57,867 bases of DNA from a virus. Of the stretch, positions 22,126 through 56,540 are shown piece by piece. The stretch is from positions 1 to 57,867 of IMG/VR virus record IMGVR_UViG_3300028534_000013; one strand, given 5' to 3'. Both the position numbers and the translations under genes were made by a program. The notes beneath the pieces are model-generated. The model did not search any database, was not told the origin of the DNA, and was given only the letters and a program-made list of their open reading frames with translations. How positions within the stretch are numbered: the stretch's first letter is position 1; each line of letters opens with the position of its first letter.

Positions 22126-22452
22126 TTAAAACGCAGTAGCGAATACACCGTTGTCAGTGCTTACTTCGTTCAGTCTAACCGCAATAGCATATACCCTGTT
22201 ATCATCGTATGCCACGAATTCGTTATCATTGTTCACTCTCACAATGTTTTCAAACGCTTTACCGATGTCGCTGTATTTTCCGTCTTCAACCAAATACCTT
22301 GCACCTTCTTTCATAAACTCTTCGGCCTCTTTTTTTTCAGCTTTGAATGCGCTAACCGCCTTATCATAATCAGAAAACACTCTTATTACGCAATCTGTAT
22401 CAAGAACCGCTTCTCCACTGTTTAAAACAGTCACTACATATACCTTTTTCAT
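22126..22452 (-). CDS. Hypothetical protein
   Basis: AAGGAG RBS; VYVV..VFSDYDKA. Confidence 0.7.
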   Translation of the reverse strand: MKKVYVVTVLNSGEAVLDTDCVIRVFSDYDKAVSAFKAEKKEAEEFMKEGARYLVEDGKYSDIGKAFENIVRVNNDNEFVAYDDNRVYAIAVRLNEVSTDNGVFATAF

Positions 22453-22462
22453 TTCTCTCTCC

Positions 22463-23119
22463 TTAGTTGTTTAATACTTCAATCCCGTATGGGATATACA
22501 ATCTGTCTCCTGCCGGAGCAACATATATGCACACAAACATCTGATGTTTCAATAAGTCTATCGCTATTACCAGCTCATCGTTTGTTACATCAAAATACGC
22601 CATATCCATAGGTATATTTAACCTATCCCTTATAGTGCTTACAATCGAATCAAACGACATCCTTTTGTTGCTCAAACAATCCAACAACTCATCACTGTCT
22701 GTTTTTGCGGTCTCGTATCTTGCTATTATTCTACACTCTTCAATACTCATATCAATCTCGTCATCAAACGCTATCCTGTCTGACGGGTCGTATTTTAACA
22801 CGGCAGGAATTTGCTGCAGCTGATACAAATACGTATATTTGTCCTCTTCTGAAATTTTCACAATTTGAAATCCAAGCTCTTCAAAAGCGTACTCAATCTC
22901 GTCAAAACCGTTTACAGATGCTTTATTGGTTGATATATGGAGCAAATCCATCATGTGTCTGATTAAATTAAACAAAGCCTGATTTAAACTGTCGGCGCAT
23001 ACACCAACCATTTGCATATTTTCATCCATTACACATACTTCACCGGTATCATCAGCCGATACGTAAAACTTACCGCCGTTCTCATACAGTTTTTTAAGAA
23101 AATCTTTATTTACTTTCAT
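22463..23119 (-). CDS. Hypothetical protein
   Basis: AAGGA RBS. Confidence 0.7.
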   Translation of the reverse strand: MKVNKDFLKKLYENGGKFYVSADDTGEVCVMDENMQMVGVCADSLNQALFNLIRHMMDLLHISTNKASVNGFDEIEYAFEELGFQIVKISEEDKYTYLYQLQQIPAVLKYDPSDRIAFDDEIDMSIEECRIIARYETAKTDSDELLDCLSNKRMSFDSIVSTIRDRLNIPMDMAYFDVTNDELVIAIDLLKHQMFVCIYVAPAGDRLYIPYGIEVLNN

Positions 23120-29431: not shown

Positions 29432-29725
29432 TTACACTGTGATAAAGACATTGTCGGCCTCCTCTTCTGTGTACCCCTCTTCTTTAATCCAATACTCATA
29501 TTCTATTTCGCACCATTTTCTAACAGCTTCTTCACTATCATCAAAATTACCTGTATCGTAATCATCCCAGTCTTCAACATTATCTGCATCACTATCGTCA
29601 ATTAAATACTGTTTTGCTCCACAGCATTGACATTCTTCATTTTCATACCAGTTTATTGCTCTGCACTCTCTGCACACTTTATAATCACTTGGTTTTTGAA
29701 AAATCCTTATTAGTTCGTGTTGCAT
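29432..29725 (-). CDS. Zinc-ribbon protein with acidic tail
   Basis: CRECRAIN...CQCCG. Confidence 0.7.
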   Translation of the reverse strand: MQHELIRIFQKPSDYKVCRECRAINWYENEECQCCGAKQYLIDDSDADNVEDWDDYDTGNFDDSEEAVRKWCEIEYEYWIKEEGYTEEEADNVFITV

Positions 29726-29735
29726 ATTTACCTCC

Positions 29736-30104
29736 TTAATTCATATATACGAAATTGTAATTATTTCTTGAGCCGTCTAAAATAACAACTCTCCAATTTT
29801 TCTTTCTTGCAAATTTTTCACGAATTTTCCAAAACATATCTTCCGTGTTAGTTAAAAACTCAACTTCATCCACATGTTTTAAATAAGTTCTCAAGTTCCT
29901 AAGGCTGTTTAAAGTCTCTTCGTCTTCCACCGCAACAATGCCAATTTTTTTGTTGTCTTTTTTCATAACCAAATCAAAAAACGTTCTACCAATCTCTTTG
30001 AACTCTGAAACAAGCTTCCATCCGGCAAATACCAACCAAAGCTTTCTGAATTCAATTACGTCCATTATGTCAGATTGAACTTCAGTAAACATTCTCATTT
30101 TCAT
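29736..30104 (-). CDS. Restriction-endonuclease-fold-like protein
   Basis: SEFKEIG..FDLVMKKD..IGIVAVED; weak. Confidence 0.55.
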   Translation of the reverse strand: MKMRMFTEVQSDIMDVIEFRKLWLVFAGWKLVSEFKEIGRTFFDLVMKKDNKKIGIVAVEDEETLNSLRNLRTYLKHVDEVEFLTNTEDMFWKIREKFARKKNWRVVILDGSRNNYNFVYMN

Positions 30105-30113
30105 TTTACCTCC

Positions 30114-30353
30114 TTATGGTACCCAGTATAAAATATGACCGTCTCCATCTACTTCAAATCTTTTTAAAGAATTCACATATTTGAAATGCGGTTTCAACTG
30201 TTTCATTATTTCATTTTCATATTCGTGAGACAATTCTAAATCTTCAACCACATCGTTTTCAAGTTCAGAAATCAACTTCTCATCTTGAACGTCCAATTCT
30301 ATTTCTGTGTAATAAAGACATGGAATTGCAACTTTAATTTTTTTCTTACCCAT
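30114..30353 (-). CDS. Hypothetical protein
   Basis: AAGGAG RBS. Confidence 0.7.
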   Translation of the reverse strand: MGKKKIKVAIPCLYYTEIELDVQDEKLISELENDVVEDLELSHEYENEIMKQLKPHFKYVNSLKRFEVDGDGHILYWVP

Positions 30354-30704
30354 TAAGTCTCCTTTTAAATTATTGTCTACACACTTTAAAACATATGCGT
30401 TTTTAATGCCTAGCTCAAACGCTAATGAAAGAAATACTTTTCTTTAGTACCTACATAGCACACAAGCAATAAAATCTCTTATATCGCTTTATTTTAATCA
30501 TTTTATCTTCAAATACAATTTGATAAAAATAAAATAACAATTGAAAAAATTTTTAAACATTTTTAGTTATTGCCTTTTTTTAGGGGCTATAGAAGACTCA
30601 CTCGAACATAATGGTTTTTTAAGCCAACATAAATTTTCTCATTTCCCTAAAAATCATAATTTTAACACTTGCACATTTCTTTTTTTAGCTTTTTAATTTC
30701 AGCT

Positions 30705-30829
30705 TTTCTATGCACCCTTCAAAAACACGGAGAGTGAACTACATTTTCCTGTTGTAATTTAGGCGTTTTGTAAAAGCCATTTACAAAGTATCACTTAGTA
30801 TCATTTCCCTAAATTACGGGGTATAGAAA
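30705..30829 (+). other. Nested inverted-repeat structure in the largest non-coding gap
   Basis: Stems 30705-30717/30818-30829, 30754-30763/30808-30817, 30767-30774/30780-30787. Confidence 0.5.
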
Positions 30830-31023
30830 CAGCATATACGCACAAAAGGGTAAGGTAGTGAAAAAAATACTGTTTTTCTTTAAAAAACAAACTAACACAA
30901 TAGGAAATTTACACGTTTTTTGGGGATGTTTTTGGAAATTTTATACATTTTTAAACATAAAATATGCTATTACGATATAAAATGAAAACATTTTACGAAA
31001 AAGATGTTATTTTTTTGAAGATT

Positions 31024-31053
31024 AAAAGGAAAAAGGAAGGGGATTTAGTCCCC
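31024..31053 (-). terminator. Intrinsic terminator GGGGA-CTAAA-TCCCC plus pyrimidine tract
   Basis: 5-bp GC-rich stem followed by TTCCTTTTTCCTTTT on minus strand. Confidence 0.65.
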
Positions 31054-31108
31054 ATCAAGGAGAAAGAAATGAAAAAATTGTTTCTTAGCACAGCTGCGGT
31101 TGCCGGGC
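31024..31108 (-). ncRNA. Candidate anti-RBS antisense sRNA (~80 nt)
   Basis: TGATATAAT promoter (31115-31123), core UUUUUUCAUUUCUUUCUCCUUG, own terminator. Confidence 0.6.
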
Positions 31109-31114
31109 AACATT

Positions 31115-31123
31115 ATTATATCA
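31115..31123 (-). promoter_or_regulatory. Extended -10 promoter TGATATAAT
   Basis: Perfect TGnTATAAT. Confidence 0.6.
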
Positions 31124-31348
31124 TTATTTTTTCTTTGTGACAAGATAAATTAAATGATACAATACCGCAAACCAGCTTAACAATGAAGACATCAATAATA
31201 TAATTATTGCCTCTTCTTTTGTTATGGTCTCTCCGCTTTCCTCTTTTATTTCTTTGACAATATTTTCATGTTCATGATTGAATATAAACATCCCCAATAA
31301 TATCGCAACTATCACTCCAACTACATACACATTAAGCATCACCTTCAC
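31124..31348 (-). CDS. Two-TM membrane protein
   Basis: Two hydrophobic helices; GGAGG RBS. Confidence 0.7.
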   Translation of the reverse strand: MKVMLNVYVVGVIVAILLGMFIFNHEHENIVKEIKEESGETITKEEAIIILLMSSLLSWFAVLYHLIYLVTKKK

Positions 31349-31628
31349 CTCCGTTTTTTATTTTATAATACATTTTCAGCAATTTAAGCAGTCTGGGGTC
31401 GCTTTCATTCATATCAAAAACAACCATTGCATCATTCTCTAATTCTTTTTCACTGCAATATTTTTCCGCAGATTCAATATCTAAAAAAAGACCAACTAGA
31501 ATATTATCAATAACCACACCAACAAGACTATTTTCATACCCATCATAAGAATCGAGTTTCCAATTGTCGTTATCGAGATTTATATCATCTATCTCTTTAA
31601 CAAACTCTACACACGTAATTACACTCAT
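31332..31628 (-). CDS. Hypothetical protein
   Basis: AAGGAGG RBS. Confidence 0.7.
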   Translation of the reverse strand: MSVITCVEFVKEIDDINLDNDNWKLDSYDGYENSLVGVVIDNILVGLFLDIESAEKYCSEKELENDAMVVFDMNESDPRLLKLLKMYYKIKNGGEGDA

Positions 31629-31637
31629 ACATCCTCC

Positions 31638-31886
31638 TTACATATAAATTTCAATAACATCGGCTTCGTTTACCTTAGAAATATCGTCCTCAGTTAAAAT
31701 ACTGAGCAAAAAGGATTTTATTTTATCCTCTTCGTTTTCCTCTTTAACAATTCTCATAATTAAAAAATTCTCTTCCATAGGAACAAGCACTGAAAAAGAA
31801 ATATCACTTTTTTCAGCAAGCTCAATGACTTTAAATCTATTTATATTTTCAGGCAAATCAAAATCTATAGTTATATACATACACAC
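31638..31886 (-). CDS. Hypothetical protein
   Basis: AAGGAG RBS. Confidence 0.65.
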   Translation of the reverse strand: MCMYITIDFDLPENINRFKVIELAEKSDISFSVLVPMEENFLIMRIVKEENEEDKIKSFLLSILTEDDISKVNEADVIEIYM

Positions 31887-31889
31887 TCC

Positions 31890-32153
31890 TTATACGTCAA
31901 GCCATGCTTGAACTATTTCTACATCCCCCAGTTCTTTTGACGAATACCCTATGCCGTTTATAGTTTTGTCATCATCACATTCTAAATCTAACAACTCAAA
32001 TTCAACATACGGTCCGCTATCGGTTTCCCTTTCAGTATAACTACTGTATTCTGTATTGTCCTCAAGAAACTCTTTAAGGTTTTCATAATCATCTTCGTCT
32101 ATTACAAAATATGCAACCTTTGTTATAAAAGGTTTGTATTTTTTATCCTCCAT
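31890..32153 (-). CDS. Small acidic hypothetical protein
   Basis: AAGGAG RBS, TAATG coupling. Confidence 0.7.
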   Translation of the reverse strand: MEDKKYKPFITKVAYFVIDEDDYENLKEFLEDNTEYSSYTERETDSGPYVEFELLDLECDDDKTINGIGYSSKELGDVEIVQAWLDV

Positions 32154-32542
32154 TACAGCTCCTTAAATAATGGTTTTGTTATAGAAAGCTCTATAGCTCT
32201 ATCAATCATTTTCTCTGCATCGCTTAAACGAATTATTTTAAATTGAAATTCTGATTTTATTTTTTTTAATTCGTTCATAGCAATTTTCAGCTTATCGTTA
32301 TCTTCAACCTTAATTACAATGTTTCCATTGTTAAAATCTACACTTACATATTTACTGTTTTCAAACATCACAACTACATCTTCAACACTTTTTGAAACCA
32401 CATAAGAACCGTCTTTTATAAATTTTTTTAGATATTCTGCTGCGGCTGAAGAATTAAGTTTTGATAAATCTATTTTTTTATCTGATAGATGTTTGTAAAT
32501 TTCATTGAAATCAAATTCCCCCTGATACTCTATTTTTGCCAT
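32153..32542 (-). CDS. Hypothetical protein
   Basis: AGGAG RBS. Confidence 0.7.
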   Translation of the reverse strand: MAKIEYQGEFDFNEIYKHLSDKKIDLSKLNSSAAAEYLKKFIKDGSYVVSKSVEDVVVMFENSKYVSVDFNNGNIVIKVEDNDKLKIAMNELKKIKSEFQFKIIRLSDAEKMIDRAIELSITKPLFKEL

Positions 32543-40895: not shown

Positions 40896-41102
40896 TTAGG
40901 AAAGAAGTCGTCTAAAATATTCGTCATTTTGTTCTATTGTATAAAAATCTATTATTACGTTGTCTCCTATTTTGCTATATAATTCTTTTATGTATTCTTT
41001 TGCTTTTTTCTTAACTTTAAAAATACCTACAACCTCTTTTTCATTATAAACATTCTCAACATAAACTATATATATTTTTTTAAAATCTGTTTCGATTAAC
41101 AA
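40896..41102 (-). CDS. Hypothetical protein coupled to rep
   Basis: IYIVY..VVGIFK.KKKAKEYI. Confidence 0.55.
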   Translation of the reverse strand: MLIETDFKKIYIVYVENVYNEKEVVGIFKVKKKAKEYIKELYSKIGDNVIIDFYTIEQNDEYFRRLLS

Positions 41103-42157
41103 TTTTCATCCATTACTTTTATGATTTTAGAGTTTAATTCTGTAAATTTGTTTACATCGAATTTATATAAGTCAAAATAACATTTACCTTCTTTTAAGAA
41201 ATCATAATAATCTTCTATCTTTTTTGCAAACATATACACGTTATTGTATATTTCCATGCTTTCATCTGAATCTATAAAAACTTCTTCTCCGTTAGTAGTT
41301 TTGGCAAAAATTTTACCGTTAACGTCTATTCCATACCAGACAACTTTATTGTTTAACTTCCCGACGATGAAATATTTTCCAGTTCCTGAATAAGTTTCAC
41401 GTAAAAATCTTACAAAGTTTTTAATGTTTTTAACTTCTGGTTTGTCATATCTGTTGTTTTTGTTGTCTGTTACATGAAATATAACATCATACACCCTGTT
41501 TCCATCAGTTTCTGTTTCGTATGTAACAAATATATCTGTATGTTTGTTTATTTCTTCTATTGCAGGCTCCAGAAGTCTTCTTTTAATGTCATAGAAATCA
41601 TATTTATCGGAACACATAAAAAAATCTCTAAGCTCATCTATTGAATAAGATATTTCTCTTTTGTATTTTTTTTGTATTTCGTATCTATTTTTTAATTCTT
41701 CAAACAATCTCAACGAATAAGGTTTTCTTAGGTTTTTCATATTTTTTATATGATATTTAAGATAATTGTTCTTATACTCTATCAGTATAGACAACATATC
41801 TTTGTCTATATAAAACACTATATCTTGTCTTTTTTTATATATCACCTTATCTACGAAGTGTAAAAACATTTCTTCGTTATCGTTTTTAACTATTATGACT
41901 TTAGACATTAACTCTTTTATTGCTTTTTTAATTTGTTTATATATTACACTTATATCTTTATCAAAAAGATTAAACAGCTCATCTTTTTTTATAGAGTACA
42001 TATAAACATCTTCTTCTGTTTTTGTAACAACAATATTCAATAATTGAATTGCGTAAATAGACAGGTCATATTTGCTCTTCATTATGATTGAACTTTTTTT
42101 TATGCTAAACTCTTCATCAAGCTCAATTACCACTATATTTTCTTCATTTTTTTTCAT
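41096..42157 (-). CDS. repB: Plasmid replication initiator, Rep_3 (RepB) family
   Basis: SKYDLS..QLL, YKQIKKAIKELMSKVI, LRKPYSLRLFEEL, SIDELR, IKRRLLEPAIEEINKHTD. Confidence 0.9.
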   Translation of the reverse strand: MKKNEENIVVIELDEEFSIKKSSIIMKSKYDLSIYAIQLLNIVVTKTEEDVYMYSIKKDELFNLFDKDISVIYKQIKKAIKELMSKVIIVKNDNEEMFLHFVDKVIYKKRQDIVFYIDKDMLSILIEYKNNYLKYHIKNMKNLRKPYSLRLFEELKNRYEIQKKYKREISYSIDELRDFFMCSDKYDFYDIKRRLLEPAIEEINKHTDIFVTYETETDGNRVYDVIFHVTDNKNNRYDKPEVKNIKNFVRFLRETYSGTGKYFIVGKLNNKVVWYGIDVNGKIFAKTTNGEEVFIDSDESMEIYNNVYMFAKKIEDYYDFLKEGKCYFDLYKFDVNKFTELNSKIIKVMDENC

Positions 42158-42248
42158 TTCATCTCCTTCTTTAATTGTATCTTATAATGTAACTATAATA
42201 TGTATGAATTTTAAATTGCGCAACCATGGTGCTTTCAGCGATTTTTCG

Positions 42249-42359
42249 CCGACAACTTTGCCAATAAAACAGGGGGGTAAACCGACAACTTTGCCAATAA
42301 AAATCAATTTACGCCGACAACTTTGCCAAAATAAACTTTTAAACCGACAACTTTGCCAA
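42249..42359 (+). repeat. Four 16-bp iterons CCGACAACTTTGCCAA (plasmid origin)
   Basis: Exact copies at 42249, 42282, 42314, 42344; upstream of rep and next to an AT-rich tract. Confidence 0.9.
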
Positions 42360-42557
42360 TACAATTTTAACACATTTTTTTATGATTTTAGAGGTTATTT
42401 TAGAGAGGAAAAACAGCTTAAATAAAAAAACACAATAAACACCTAAAACTTGGAAGTATATATCTTTTTTTATTTTGTTTTTAAAATTTTAAAGCATTTA
42501 ATAAGTTAAGGAAAAATTTCTTAACTTTGATTGTTGATTTACATACGTATTCATATC

Positions 42558-42573
42558 TGATATAATTATACCA
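42558..42573. promoter_or_regulatory. Overlapping divergent extended -10 boxes
   Basis: TGATATAAT (+) and TGGTATAAT (-) share TATAATTATA. Confidence 0.5.
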
Positions 42574-42602
42574 AATTGACAATAAAAAACAAAGGAGCTC
42601 AT

Positions 42603-54556: not shown

Positions 54557-55552
54557 TTACCCTTCAAACCCAACCTCTTCTTCAATATTATATTTATACC
54601 AATTAGGCAGAGATATAACTTGAAAAGGTGTTTTCTTTTTGTTTTCAAAATTCATTTCATATCCAAACCAATCTCCAGTCTCAGTACAATATGAATATTG
54701 TTCTAAAACTTTTTTGGCAATTTTGTCGGTGTAATATGTGATGTCTTCGGGGGATATGACCAACCCGTTAACAAGATACGGTCTTGTTTTTTCAACAGCT
54801 ACAAAGCCGAACATTTTTTTAGCGTCTCCACCCAATTCGCATATTCTTAAATATAACCAATTTTGTAAATCGTATCCAAATTTTGCACTTGTCACTGAAA
54901 AATCGTTTGCGTTAGCCGAAGTGGTTGTTTTTAAATCCAAAACTTTATCATTAGTGTCGGCATCCACTTTAACTCTTAATACGCATTTATACTCATCATC
55001 CCAAACAAACATTGCTCTTTCGTTGTGTCCACTTCTTAACAAGTGTAGAAAATTGTAATGATTTTTTAACGATTCAGCCATTCCTTCAATATCTTTAAAT
55101 ACAGTGTCTTTTATTAATTCTCTGCCTTTTGCGTCTTCGGCATATTTTTTATAAGCAGCACTGTTTTTTCTTACATCGCCTGGATACACGAAATATTCGC
55201 TGTGGAATTCGTCAGGTTCTAAAACATATTTATGGAAAGCTCTACCGAAAACAAGAGCGTCTCTGTTTTGTTTTTCAGGATAATCTTTTAAAGCTCTATA
55301 TTTTGCCGGGGTATTATGGTAGATTGATTTCATCCCTGACGAACTTAGCCCTGGAGTTAGTGGATTGTGATATAAATAATCCTCAAGCTTAATCCATTCC
55401 CCAAGAGGTATTCCAAGTGTTTCAAGTTGTTCTTTTTCGTCCATTAAATCCCATTCAATAGGGTCTATACTTAGCAATTCCAACATAGAATCCTTATCGT
55501 TGTTTTGATACACCTCGTCAAATGTTAATTCTGTAAATTTTTTAGCAGCCAT
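54557..55552 (-). CDS. recE: RecE-like exonuclease (DUF3799, PD-(D/E)XK)
   Basis: LSSSG, FGRAFH.YVLEP, KVD, DLKTT, GYDLQ..LY, AVEK..PY. Confidence 0.85.
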   Translation of the reverse strand: MAAKKFTELTFDEVYQNNDKDSMLELLSIDPIEWDLMDEKEQLETLGIPLGEWIKLEDYLYHNPLTPGLSSSGMKSIYHNTPAKYRALKDYPEKQNRDALVFGRAFHKYVLEPDEFHSEYFVYPGDVRKNSAAYKKYAEDAKGRELIKDTVFKDIEGMAESLKNHYNFLHLLRSGHNERAMFVWDDEYKCVLRVKVDADTNDKVLDLKTTTSANANDFSVTSAKFGYDLQNWLYLRICELGGDAKKMFGFVAVEKTRPYLVNGLVISPEDITYYTDKIAKKVLEQYSYCTETGDWFGYEMNFENKKKTPFQVISLPNWYKYNIEEEVGFEG

Positions 55553-55566
55553 TTCTTTCTCCTTAA

Positions 55567-56520
55567 TTATTTGTTTTCAACTGGTTCATAAACAATATCA
55601 TCATCTTCAACTATTTCATAGTCAACTATGGTTTGCGCTTTTCCTACCAAATGGTCAGGCAATTTGGCCGTTGTTGTTAATTTTAATTTTTCAACAAGCT
55701 CTTCAGGAATATCTTTTTTAGACACTTTAACATATCCTTTTTTAAGCTCATATTCAACGCCCATATCATCTAAAGCCATTTGTAGAGTAATCTTTTTTTC
55801 GACCTCTTGATTTAATTCTTCAATCGCTTCATATGTACTGTCTACTTTTTCGCTTTTTTCAATTTCTTCGATTGTAGCGTAATTTTCGTTATCTATTTCT
55901 GTTGCATATCTCAATGATTCTGGAACAGGAATCATTTTAACCAATCTTTTTAATGGAACTTTTTTTGCTACTTCATCAAACCAAGTATCCCATACGGTGT
56001 GTTTTCCTTTTGATTTTATTTTTGCAGCTTTTTTAGCTTCGTTAAGCTCGTTTAAATTGGCGGTTGAAATTACAACTTCACCGTTTGGCAAAACTCCTCT
56101 TGCATATGCCCCTATAATTTTGTTGTCAGTATTAAAAGGGTTAACTGTATGTTTTATTTCCGTTTTCCCGTTGTCTATATTTATTTGAAAGTTTTCACCT
56201 TCTCTCACAACATACGCATCTACCAATTTGAAAACCCCATATTCAATAAGTTTTTTTGGCCAAAATGTATATTTTTGTTCAATCTTGATTGTGCCGTTAT
56301 ATACTATGATATAAATATCATCTACAGCTGACAACTCTGGGTCTGCTGTAACAATTTTAAGTATAGTGTTTAAAACAGCTTCTTTGGGCGGAATCTCTTT
56401 TTGATAGATTTTATTTAAAAGCAACGAAAGTTTGTTTTTTTTTAGAGCATCGACTTTCAAATCAAGCTCTTTTACCACATCTTCTACATTTAATTTACCG
56501 TTATTGTTTCTTGCAGCCAT
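55567..56520 (-). CDS. recT: RecT-family single-strand annealing protein
   Basis: AYVVREGENF, IIGAYA, VWDTWFDEVAKK..KRLVK. Confidence 0.85.
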   Translation of the reverse strand: MAARNNNGKLNVEDVVKELDLKVDALKKNKLSLLLNKIYQKEIPPKEAVLNTILKIVTADPELSAVDDIYIIVYNGTIKIEQKYTFWPKKLIEYGVFKLVDAYVVREGENFQINIDNGKTEIKHTVNPFNTDNKIIGAYARGVLPNGEVVISTANLNELNEAKKAAKIKSKGKHTVWDTWFDEVAKKVPLKRLVKMIPVPESLRYATEIDNENYATIEEIEKSEKVDSTYEAIEELNQEVEKKITLQMALDDMGVEYELKKGYVKVSKKDIPEELVEKLKLTTTAKLPDHLVGKAQTIVDYEIVEDDDIVYEPVENK

Positions 56521-56540
56521 TTCTTTCTCCTTGTGTTATT

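What the first reader, a model, noticed from the sequence alone, without database searches (positions are those of the whole stretch)
31024..31140. Stand-alone sRNA complementary to a ribosome-binding site plus signal-peptide codons
Seen: minus-strand TGATATAAT, then about 80 nt, then a terminator. Its complement reads AAGGAGAAAGAA-ATG AAA AAA TTG TTT CTT AGC ACA GCT GCG GTT GCC GGG (MKKLFLSTAAVAG), like the 5' end of an exported-protein mRNA, and the likeness ends at the promoter. The core also perfectly matches the start regions of recT (16 nt, 56518-56533) and recE (15 nt, 55550-55564), and pairs over 20 nt (one G-U) with that of the 22452 gene. Inference: trans-acting silencer of a host envelope protein (receptor, superinfection exclusion) or of recET. 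Alternative: type I TA with the 23-aa peptide 31069-31140.
Basis: partly seen in the sequence, partly recalled or inferred. Interest (0 to 1): 0.8.

Follow-up and report, generated by a model that had tools for sequence, protein, structure and literature searches.

The report
Conserved phage small RNA with anti-ribosome-site seed
An uncultured 177-kb phage appears to make an ~80-nt RNA from a conserved strong promoter, carrying a conserved stretch that can pair with ribosome-binding sites of the phage's own replication and recombination genes; there is no expression data and the target is unproven.

Summary
The minus strand has TTGTCA-17-TGATATAAT (31143-31115), then about 55 nt, then a hairpin and T-tract (31053-31024). 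The complement reads AAGGAG-6 nt-ATG plus a 23-codon ORF.

Three diverged lineages from metagenomes keep the promoter (only the N of TGNTATAAT varies), the 13-nt block TTTCTTTCTCCTT, and the terminator hairpin (two compensatory pairs).

The "signal-peptide codons" are the least conserved part. They carry indels, and the ORF is frameshifted in this window relative to the other two lineages. No host gene with this start was found. The host exported-protein reading is therefore not supported.

The recT/recE matches are real, but 6-14% of genuine start regions in this genome show matches of that length.

Best reading (about 0.4): a stand-alone sRNA that shares the upstream operon's terminator and blocks start regions of the AAGGAGRAAGAAAUG type. 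Candidates are the Rep3 initiator, recT, recE and the 22452 gene. The Rep3 start region co-varies with the sRNA across lineages, but this signal is weak.

Main rival (about 0.25): a type I toxin-antitoxin-like pair with the small plus-strand peptide.

No RNA data exist. This is a new member of a known kind and of moderate interest.

The parts
31115..31143 (-). Sigma-70/sigma-A-type promoter: TTGTCA (31143-31138), 17 nt, TG-extended TATAAT (31123-31115). The -35 lies in the last codons of the 74-aa gene and the -10 directly follows its stop codon.
   Evidence: Identical in three lineages except the N of TGNTATAAT.
31024..31109 (-). Predicted sRNA of about 80-85 nt, from an inferred start near 31109-31107 to the end of the T-tract at 31024.
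   Evidence: Inferred from the promoter and terminator geometry. No RNA data are available. Single copy in the genome. No Rfam family.
31056..31072 (-). Seed: CAUUUCUUUCUCCUUG, an anti-Shine-Dalgarno plus anti-start-codon stretch. The 13-nt core TTTCTTTCTCCTT (31069-31057) is invariant.
   Evidence: Second-longest invariant run in 772 non-coding columns. Predicted mostly unpaired in all three lineages.
31039..31053 (-). Terminator hairpin GGGGA-CUAAA-UCCCC, followed by the T-tract 31038-31024. It also serves as the 3' end of the upstream operon.
   Evidence: It is the only consensus structure found by RNAalifold, with 2 of 6 pairs compensatory. The hairpin is weak: -9.1, -6.7 and -3.9 kcal/mol in the three lineages.
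31069..31140 (+). Plus-strand 23-codon ORF (MKKLFLSTAAVAGQHYYIIIFSL) behind AAGGAG at 31057-31062. It is either a by-product of the seed or a small peptide gene.
   Evidence: The relatives have 25- and 26-codon ORFs in another frame. No Pfam or PADLOC match.
31124..31348 (-). Upstream gene for a 71-74-aa protein with two hydrophobic segments. Its 3' end carries the promoter's -35 element.
   Evidence: Clear 3-periodic substitution pattern. Homologues at 83-87% identity. No family match.
42149..42168 (-). Candidate target: start region of the Rep3 initiator gene (41096-42157).
   Evidence: Rep3_N and Rep3_C domains. The duplex is -21 to -22 kcal/mol here but -30 in lineage B, where it is the top hit. 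Codon 2 co-varies with the sRNA.
56518..56533 (-). Candidate target: recT start region, 16 nt exactly complementary.
   Evidence: -30.4 kcal/mol.
55550..55564 (-). Candidate target: start region of the recE-like exonuclease, 15 nt exactly complementary.
   Evidence: -30.3 kcal/mol.
22445..22464 (-). Candidate target: start region of the 108-aa gene 22126-22452, 20 nt complementary with one G-U.
   Evidence: -32.9 kcal/mol, the top hit in this genome.
30390..30418 (-). Separate promoter-like site for the downstream operon: TTGAGC-17-TATGTT here, TTGAGA-17-TATATT in lineage B. It lies 36 nt before the start of the 79-aa gene.
   Evidence: It includes the invariant block TAGCGTTTGAG.

Best explanation
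This is a stand-alone regulatory RNA of about 80 nt on the minus strand.

Shown by sequence and comparison:
- A near-consensus extended -10 promoter overlaps the stop codon of the 74-aa gene.
- About 55 nt follow, and then the intrinsic terminator that also ends the upstream operon. This is the layout of a 3'-UTR-type sRNA with its own promoter.
- A pyrimidine-rich stretch, CAUUUCUUUCUCCUUG, lies just before the terminator hairpin and is predicted to be unpaired.

Inferred:
- This seed pairs with the Shine-Dalgarno sequence, spacer and start codon of phage mRNAs of the AAGGAG(A/G)AAGAAAUG type, and so blocks 30S binding.
- The candidate targets are the Rep3 replication initiator, recT, recE and the 22452 gene.
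- The plus-strand 'RBS + ATG + ORF' is then only the mirror image of an anti-start-region seed, not a gene.
For: Promoter:
- It is as good as the roughly 14 promoters that sit 21-37 nt before genes in this genome.
- It is the only strong intergenic promoter with no gene behind it; the next gene is 762 nt away.
- That next gene has its own conserved promoter-like site.

Conservation across three lineages (66-79% identity in the non-coding DNA):
- The promoter is kept, varying only at the N of TGNTATAAT.
- The 13-nt seed is kept.
- The hairpin plus T-tract is kept, with 2 compensatory pairs.
- The seed is predicted unpaired.

Independence from the peptide:
- The middle of the RNA, which corresponds to codons 4-13 of the plus ORF, varies and carries non-triplet indels.
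- In this window the ORF is frameshifted and the putative plus-strand promoter is at its worst, yet the sRNA signals are intact. The RNA therefore does not depend on the peptide.

Targets:
- Three start regions pair at -30 kcal/mol or better. This is seen for only 1-4% of control 'antisense of a real start region' sequences.
- Rep3: codon 2 reads AAA / GGA / AAA in lineages window / B / C, both in rep and in the sRNA complement. In a 3x3 energy matrix the cognate pairs are best or tied.
- In the 80-kb lineage B contig the 13-mer occurs only in the sRNA and, in complement, at the rep and recT starts.
Against: - There are no RNA data at all, so the transcript is inferred.
- The seed is the complement of a near-consensus start region, so complementarity to some phage genes is expected. 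15% of control sequences reach -30 kcal/mol, and 6-14% of start regions share 15-16 nt with another.
- The best target differs between lineages.
- Rep3 pairing is only rank 14 (-22 kcal/mol) in this window.
- Lineage B has an extra U inside the seed, which weakens recT/recE pairing.
- The ATG is kept at a changed spacing (6 versus 7 nt). That fits translation as well as pairing.
- The covariation rests on one event in three lineages, and lineage C's rep comes from a neighbouring contig of the same assembly, not the same contig.
- The terminator hairpins are weak.
- A related phage (L028) lacks the whole module.
Confidence: 0.4

Rival explanations
1. A cis-antisense pair of the type I toxin-antitoxin kind (Sib/Ibs- or sok/hok-like geometry). 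A plus-strand mRNA encodes a 23-26-aa hydrophobic peptide. The minus-strand RNA, made from a strong promoter inside the 3' part of the ORF, covers its ribosome-binding site and first codons and blocks translation. It could act as an addiction module for a phage that carries a plasmid-type Rep3 replicon.
For: - A canonical SD-ATG is kept in all three lineages, even though its spacing changed from 6 to 7 nt.
- 70 of the 96 AAGGAG-N5-9-ATG sites in this genome are called gene starts, and most of the other 26 also head sizeable ORFs.
- Lineages B and C keep one frame: MGKISILCLLGSIIISLFFLCDKIC and MKKILSIVRLLGSIIITLFFSCDKIY.
- A plus-strand -10 (TAWAAT, 30978-30983) is conserved. Lineage B has TACACA-18-TATAAT at 10/12.
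- The plus-strand fold sequesters the SD in all three lineages.
- A Rep3 initiator is present.
Against: - This window's ORF is frameshifted relative to B and C by +1 and +3 indels.
- The changes between B and C in the unconstrained N-terminal part are almost all non-synonymous.
- Hydrophobicity is automatic here, because the strand is T-rich.
- All three frames are open across the 3' half, so an open frame carries no information.
- The plus-strand promoter is poor in this window, and its -10 lies 86 nt before the ATG, unlike the 21-37 nt of the genome's promoters.
- No plus-strand terminator was found.
- The peptides match no Pfam or PADLOC family.
- The SD-sequestering helix shows no compensatory change.
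Confidence: 0.25
2. There is no separate RNA gene. The stretch is simply the 3' untranslated end and terminator of the upstream operon, or a leader/attenuator for the downstream operon. On this reading the promoter-like and start-region-like features are by-products of the coding sequence and of composition.
For: - The terminator is where the 74-aa gene's operon must end in any case.
- The -35 and the spacer lie in conserved codons.
- The terminator hairpins are weak, so read-through is likely.
- The 770-nt gap contains many other conserved blocks of unknown role.
- Runs of 13 invariant columns are not individually significant: about 0.4 are expected and 3 are seen.
Against: - The -10, which lies outside the coding sequence, is invariant apart from its free position.
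- The promoter equals the best genuine promoters of the genome.
- This is the only antisense AAGGAG in an intergenic region of a minus-strand operon.
- The downstream operon has its own promoter-like site.
- Neighbouring start regions are not complementary to the seed; they rank above 100.
- No alternative antiterminator structure was found.
Confidence: 0.2
3. One reading: the sRNA is an antisense copy of the 5' end of a host exported-protein mRNA and silences it, for example a receptor, giving superinfection exclusion.
For: - MKKLFLSTAAVAG looks like the n- and h-regions of a signal peptide.
- The host is unknown and may not be among the genomes searched.
Against: - The region complementary to codons 4-13 is the least conserved part and carries indels.
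- No gene in the GTDB species genomes starts with these 13 residues.
- The 16 looser matches come from unrelated phyla and show no extra DNA identity.
- Only the stretch from the SD to about +10 is conserved.
Confidence: 0.07

Closest known systems
Phage P1/P7 c4 RNA (acts on the icd-ant mRNA) and phage P22 sar RNA (acts on ant)
   Same: These are short phage-encoded RNAs whose function is to pair with the ribosome-binding region of a phage mRNA and block translation (review PMC12197685; details from my own knowledge).
   Different: sar is encoded directly opposite its target gene. c4 is processed from the same operon as its target. Here no long gene lies opposite, the candidate targets are 9-25 kb away, and the RNA has its own promoter. 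There is no sequence or Rfam relationship.
Type I toxin-antitoxin pairs with full 5' overlap (Sib/Ibs, sok/hok-mok)
   Same: A small hydrophobic ORF with a strong ribosome-binding site. A short antisense RNA from a strong promoter covers that site. The plus strand shows a predicted SD-sequestering fold.
   Different: The reading frame and peptide sequence are not conserved. There is no convincing toxin promoter or terminator. There is no homology to known toxin families.
3'-UTR-type sRNAs with an internal promoter (DapZ, MicL in enterobacteria; from my own knowledge)
   Same: The promoter lies inside or at the end of the upstream coding sequence. The sRNA shares the mRNA's terminator. A single-stranded seed lies just before the terminator.
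   Different: Those are host-encoded, Hfq-dependent RNAs of Gram-negative bacteria. This one is encoded by a phage, has a CU-rich anti-SD seed, and is not homologous to them.
Plasmid countertranscript (ctRNA) copy-control RNAs, e.g. pMV158 RNAII (from my own knowledge)
   Same: An antisense RNA complementary to the translation start region of a replication initiator gene.
   Different: ctRNAs are encoded within the rep leader itself. Here the RNA lies about 10 kb from the Rep3 gene, and pairing in this window is interrupted (7 bp, a loop, then 12 bp). No Rfam ctRNA model matches.

Membership tests
Trans-acting base-pairing sRNA (generic kind) | Own promoter and intrinsic terminator bounding a short non-coding transcript | tested here: met
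   This holds at the level of sequence pattern and conservation only.
Trans-acting base-pairing sRNA (generic kind) | Conserved, accessible seed | tested here: met
   A 13-nt invariant block. Its unpaired probability is 0.61-0.84.
Trans-acting base-pairing sRNA (generic kind) | Target complementarity that is specific and maintained in evolution | tested here: inconclusive
   The Rep3 start region co-varies in one lineage, but recT/recE do not. The control sequences show that generic start-region likeness explains much of the complementarity.
Trans-acting base-pairing sRNA (generic kind) | The RNA is actually made | not testable with these tools
   No RNA run is listed for this phage.
Type I toxin-antitoxin | Small hydrophobic ORF with a ribosome-binding site, overlapped by an antisense RNA | tested here: met
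Type I toxin-antitoxin | Toxin mRNA with its own promoter and 3' end | tested here: inconclusive
   The -10 is conserved. The -35 is acceptable in B and C but poor in the window. No plus-strand terminator was found.
Type I toxin-antitoxin | Peptide maintained by selection (frame and sequence) | tested here: not met
   The window is frameshifted relative to B and C. The changes between B and C are non-synonymous.
Type I toxin-antitoxin | Homology to a described toxin family | tested here: not met
   No Pfam or PADLOC hit at E-values up to 10 and 1 respectively.
Type I toxin-antitoxin | Toxicity of the peptide | not testable with these tools
   This needs an expression experiment.
Any Rfam family (including C4 antisense RNA, ctRNAs and known type I antitoxins) | Match to the family's covariance model | tested here: not met
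   No match at E-values up to 1 in the window (29500-32500) or in loci L018 and L021.
Plasmid ctRNA copy control | Encoded antisense within the rep leader | tested here: not met
   The sRNA is at 31.1 kb and rep is at 41.1-42.2 kb.

The most novel reading that the evidence does not exclude
A trans-encoded copy-control or timing RNA. On this reading the phage, which carries a plasmid-type Rep3/iteron replicon, makes an sRNA 10 kb away from rep. The sRNA pairs with the start region of the rep mRNA, co-evolving with it, and with those of recT/recE. One RNA would thereby jointly throttle replication initiation and recombination.
Probability: 0.15. Interest if true: 0.65.

Novelty: new member of a known kind. 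Interest (0 to 1): 0.42.

Why it matters
Few regulatory RNAs are known from large, uncultured phages. Almost all phage RNAs known to block ribosome-binding sites come from temperate enterobacterial phages. This is a conserved, promoter-equipped anti-start-region RNA with candidate targets in replication and recombination. It would be a simple, testable example of phage self-regulation by RNA, and possibly of antisense control of an initiator that is not encoded opposite the RNA. The case also shows that an apparent 'RBS + signal peptide' on the opposite strand can be only the mirror image of an sRNA seed.

Tried and rejected
- RNA evidence: no RNA holder was listed. The contigs laid from four DNA runs show only that two near-identical strains have no change in the sRNA.
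- Phage GenBank collection: no DNA or protein match.
- IMG/VR and JGI metagenome pattern scans: these found only lineage B again plus two unrelated chance hits, L025 and L026. A scan with the 98-aa neighbour found nothing. The Rep3 scan returned only the lineage B contig.
- Host gene search: nothing at 13 residues; 16 unrelated hits at 10 residues.
- Rfam: nothing.
- Pfam, PHROGs and PADLOC: nothing for the peptides or the neighbouring genes.
- Paralogues of the sRNA in the genome: none by nhmmer.
- Similarity between the large intergenic gaps of the genome: none.
- A hidden coding gene in the 770-nt gap: rejected, because the substitutions show no 3-periodicity.
- Cis pairing of the seed with start regions of neighbouring genes: rejected; they rank above 100.
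- A shared special promoter motif (TAGTTA...TACAAT) for the candidate targets: found only at rep.
- A lambda 6S/PR'-type leader read through by antitermination: considered unlikely, because the downstream operon has its own promoter-like site and a relative lacks the module altogether.
- The record of the lineage that lacks the module (L028) is not held, so its rep gene could not be read.

Full report
**Context.** The window is the first 57.9 kb of a 176,653-bp IMG/VR virus record. The record has about 33% G+C, and almost all its genes are on the minus strand. It has no DNA or protein match in the GenBank phage collection. Pfam confirms RecT and a PDDEXK RecE-like exonuclease, DnaB, primase and a Rep3 initiator.

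**Observation.**
- The minus strand has TTGTCA (31143-31138), 17 nt, then TGATATAAT (31123-31115). The -35 lies in the last codons of a 74-aa two-helix protein gene (31124-31348), and the -10 directly follows its stop codon.
- About 55 nt further on lies GGGGACTAAATCCCC (31053-31039), followed by TTCCTTTTTCCTTTT.
- The complement reads AAGGAG, 6 nt, ATG (31069), and then a 23-codon ORF that stops at TGA 31138-40.
- The 16-nt recT match, the 15-nt recE match and the 20-nt 22452 match (one G-U) are all present.

**Is it more than chance?**
- TGNTATAAT combined with a 5/6 -35 occurs about 5 times on both strands of the genome, against about 1 expected.
- A wider scan shows about 14 strong sigma-70-type promoters placed 21-37 nt before start codons. 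The 31115 promoter is the only strong intergenic one with no gene behind it; the next gene is 762 nt away.
- 70 of the 96 AAGGAG-N5-9-ATG sites are called gene starts, and most of the other 26 also head sizeable ORFs. The site at 31057 is the only intergenic AAGGAG antisense to a minus-strand operon.
- By contrast, the recT/recE matches are what a near-consensus start region gives. 14% of genuine start regions share at least 15 nt with another, and 6% share at least 16 nt.

**Relatives.** The 74-aa protein has homologues at 83-87% identity. Their contigs show the same order: the 71-76-aa gene, a gap of about 760 nt, then the 79-aa gene. There are three lineages: the window, B (L018/L019/L022 and the 80-kb IMG/VR contig G001) and C (L021). 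They share 66-79% identity in the non-coding DNA and 84-86% in the gene.
- A fourth relative (L028, a 161-kb contig) has the downstream operon but lacks the 74-aa gene, the RNA and the gap. The module is therefore accessory.
- Two near-identical strains in DNA runs carry no change in the RNA.
- The gap is non-coding: its substitutions show no 3-periodicity, unlike those in the flanking gene.

**What is conserved.**
- The promoter is identical in all lineages except the free N of TGNTATAAT.
- The 13-mer TTTCTTTCTCCTT (31069-31057) is the second-longest invariant run in 772 non-coding columns. It equals the run at the real Shine-Dalgarno sequence of the 79-aa gene.
- The only consensus structure is the terminator hairpin, with compensatory changes in 2 of 6 pairs. 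The hairpins are weak, at -9.1, -6.7 and -3.9 kcal/mol.
- The seed is predicted to be mostly unpaired.
- The middle of the RNA is the least conserved part and carries indels. This is the complement of codons 4-13, the supposed signal peptide.
- No Rfam family matches, and there is no second copy in the genome.

**The plus-strand ORF.** All three lineages keep an SD-ATG, but lineage B has a 7-nt spacer instead of 6.
- B and C keep one frame: MGKISILCLLGSIIISLFFLCDKIC and MKKILSIVRLLGSIIITLFFSCDKIY.
- The window is shifted by +1 and +3 indels and reads MKKLFLSTAAVAGQHYYIIIFSL.
- The changes between B and C in the unconstrained part are nearly all non-synonymous.
- All three frames are open over the 3' half, and the strand is T-rich. 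Neither openness nor hydrophobicity is therefore informative.
- A plus-strand -10 (TAWAAT, 30978-30983) is conserved. Its -35 is acceptable in B (10/12) and C (9/12) but poor in the window. The -10 lies 86 nt before the ATG, unlike the genome's other promoters.
- No plus-strand terminator was found.
- A plus-strand SD-sequestering helix is possible in all three lineages, but without compensatory change.
- The peptides match no Pfam or PADLOC family.
- In the window lineage the ORF and its putative promoter are at their worst while the sRNA signals are at their best. This argues that the RNA is selected for something other than holding down this peptide.

**Targets.** RNAduplex was run against all start regions.
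- In this genome the ranking is the 22452 gene (-32.9 kcal/mol), recT (-30.4) and recE (-30.3). Rep3 is rank 14 (-22).
- In lineage B, Rep3 is the top hit (-30.2), and recT and recE rank third and fourth.
- Controls made from the antisense of real start regions reach -30 in 15% of cases. They have three targets at -30.3 or better in 1-4% of cases.
- Rep3 co-varies with the sRNA. The start reads ATGAAAAAA in the window, ATGGGAAAAA in B and ATGAAAAAAA in C, both in rep and in the sRNA complement. For C, rep comes from L036, a neighbouring contig of the same assembly as L021. In a 3x3 matrix the cognate pairs are best or tied.
- In the 80-kb lineage B contig the 13-mer occurs only in the sRNA and, in complement, at the rep and recT starts.
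- recT and recE do not co-vary.
- This evidence is suggestive, roughly p of 0.04-0.1. It rests on one event.

**Host target.** No gene in 185,579 species genomes starts with the 13 residues. The 16 genes matching a looser 10-residue pattern come from unrelated phyla and show no extra DNA identity. The non-conservation of the signal-peptide part points the same way. The host envelope-protein reading is therefore not supported.

**Leader or attenuator reading.** The downstream operon has its own conserved promoter-like site, with the -35 starting at 30418 and the -10 ending at 30390. It lies 36 nt before the start codon, as is usual in this genome. Neighbouring start regions are not complementary to the seed. 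This makes a pure leader function less likely, although read-through of the weak terminator is probable.

**Verdict.** The most likely reading (0.4) is a stand-alone sRNA of 3'-UTR type that blocks phage start regions of one class. The main rival (0.25) is a type I toxin-antitoxin-like cis-antisense pair. A plain operon end or leader (0.2) and a host target (0.07) follow. The closest known systems are P1/P7 c4 and P22 sar (and my own knowledge), Sib/Ibs-type pairs, internal-promoter 3'-UTR sRNAs and plasmid ctRNAs. The RNA is a member of none of these by sequence. No expression data exist, so the transcript itself remains inferred.

Noticed in passing
window 30354-31023: The 670 nt between the terminator and the 79-aa gene are non-coding but contain many invariant blocks across three lineages, for example GCTATGTAGGTACT at 30459-30446 and AACGCCTAAATT.CAACAGGAAAAT at 30767-30743. 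There is no Rfam match, and the whole stretch is absent from relative L028. Its function is unknown.
   Followed up: partly
window 31135-31163 (+): A plus-strand promoter-like site: TTGTGA-17-TGATACAAT here, TGATATAAT in lineage B, degenerate in C. Its -35 overlaps the -35 of the sRNA promoter in the palindromic TTGTGACAA. It would drive an RNA antisense to the 74-aa membrane-protein gene.
   Followed up: partly
window 31177-31204 (+): A second plus-strand promoter-like site, TTAACA-16-TATAAT (11/12), lies inside the 74-aa gene on the antisense strand. It is TTAATA-16-TACAAT in lineage B and weak in lineage C.
   Followed up: partly
window 30982-31017 (+): An 11-codon mini-ORF without an SD is kept in lineages B and C. 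In this window a run of 7 T (31010-31016) fuses it in frame to the 23-codon ORF, giving the listed 58-aa ORF. The near-identical strain in run X2 has one T fewer, which restores the stop codon.
   Followed up: partly
whole genome (G000): Strong sigma-70-type promoters lie at a stereotyped 21-37 nt before start codons, implying 5' leaders of only about 15-30 nt. The rep mRNA may start practically at its Shine-Dalgarno sequence.
   Followed up: partly
window 31332-31628: The 98-aa gene upstream of the 74-aa gene is missing from lineage B. It is present, at least its start, at the end of contig L036.
   Followed up: no
G000 144606-145516 and 157041-157825 (outside the window): My simple gene caller left two gaps of 0.8-0.9 kb there. 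By eye they look coding, so they may hold genes with unusual starts or frameshifts.
   Followed up: no
window 42158-42602: Exact direct repeats of 18-22 nt (iteron-like) lie upstream of the Rep3 gene. They appeared as self-matches in the comparison of intergenic gaps.
   Followed up: no
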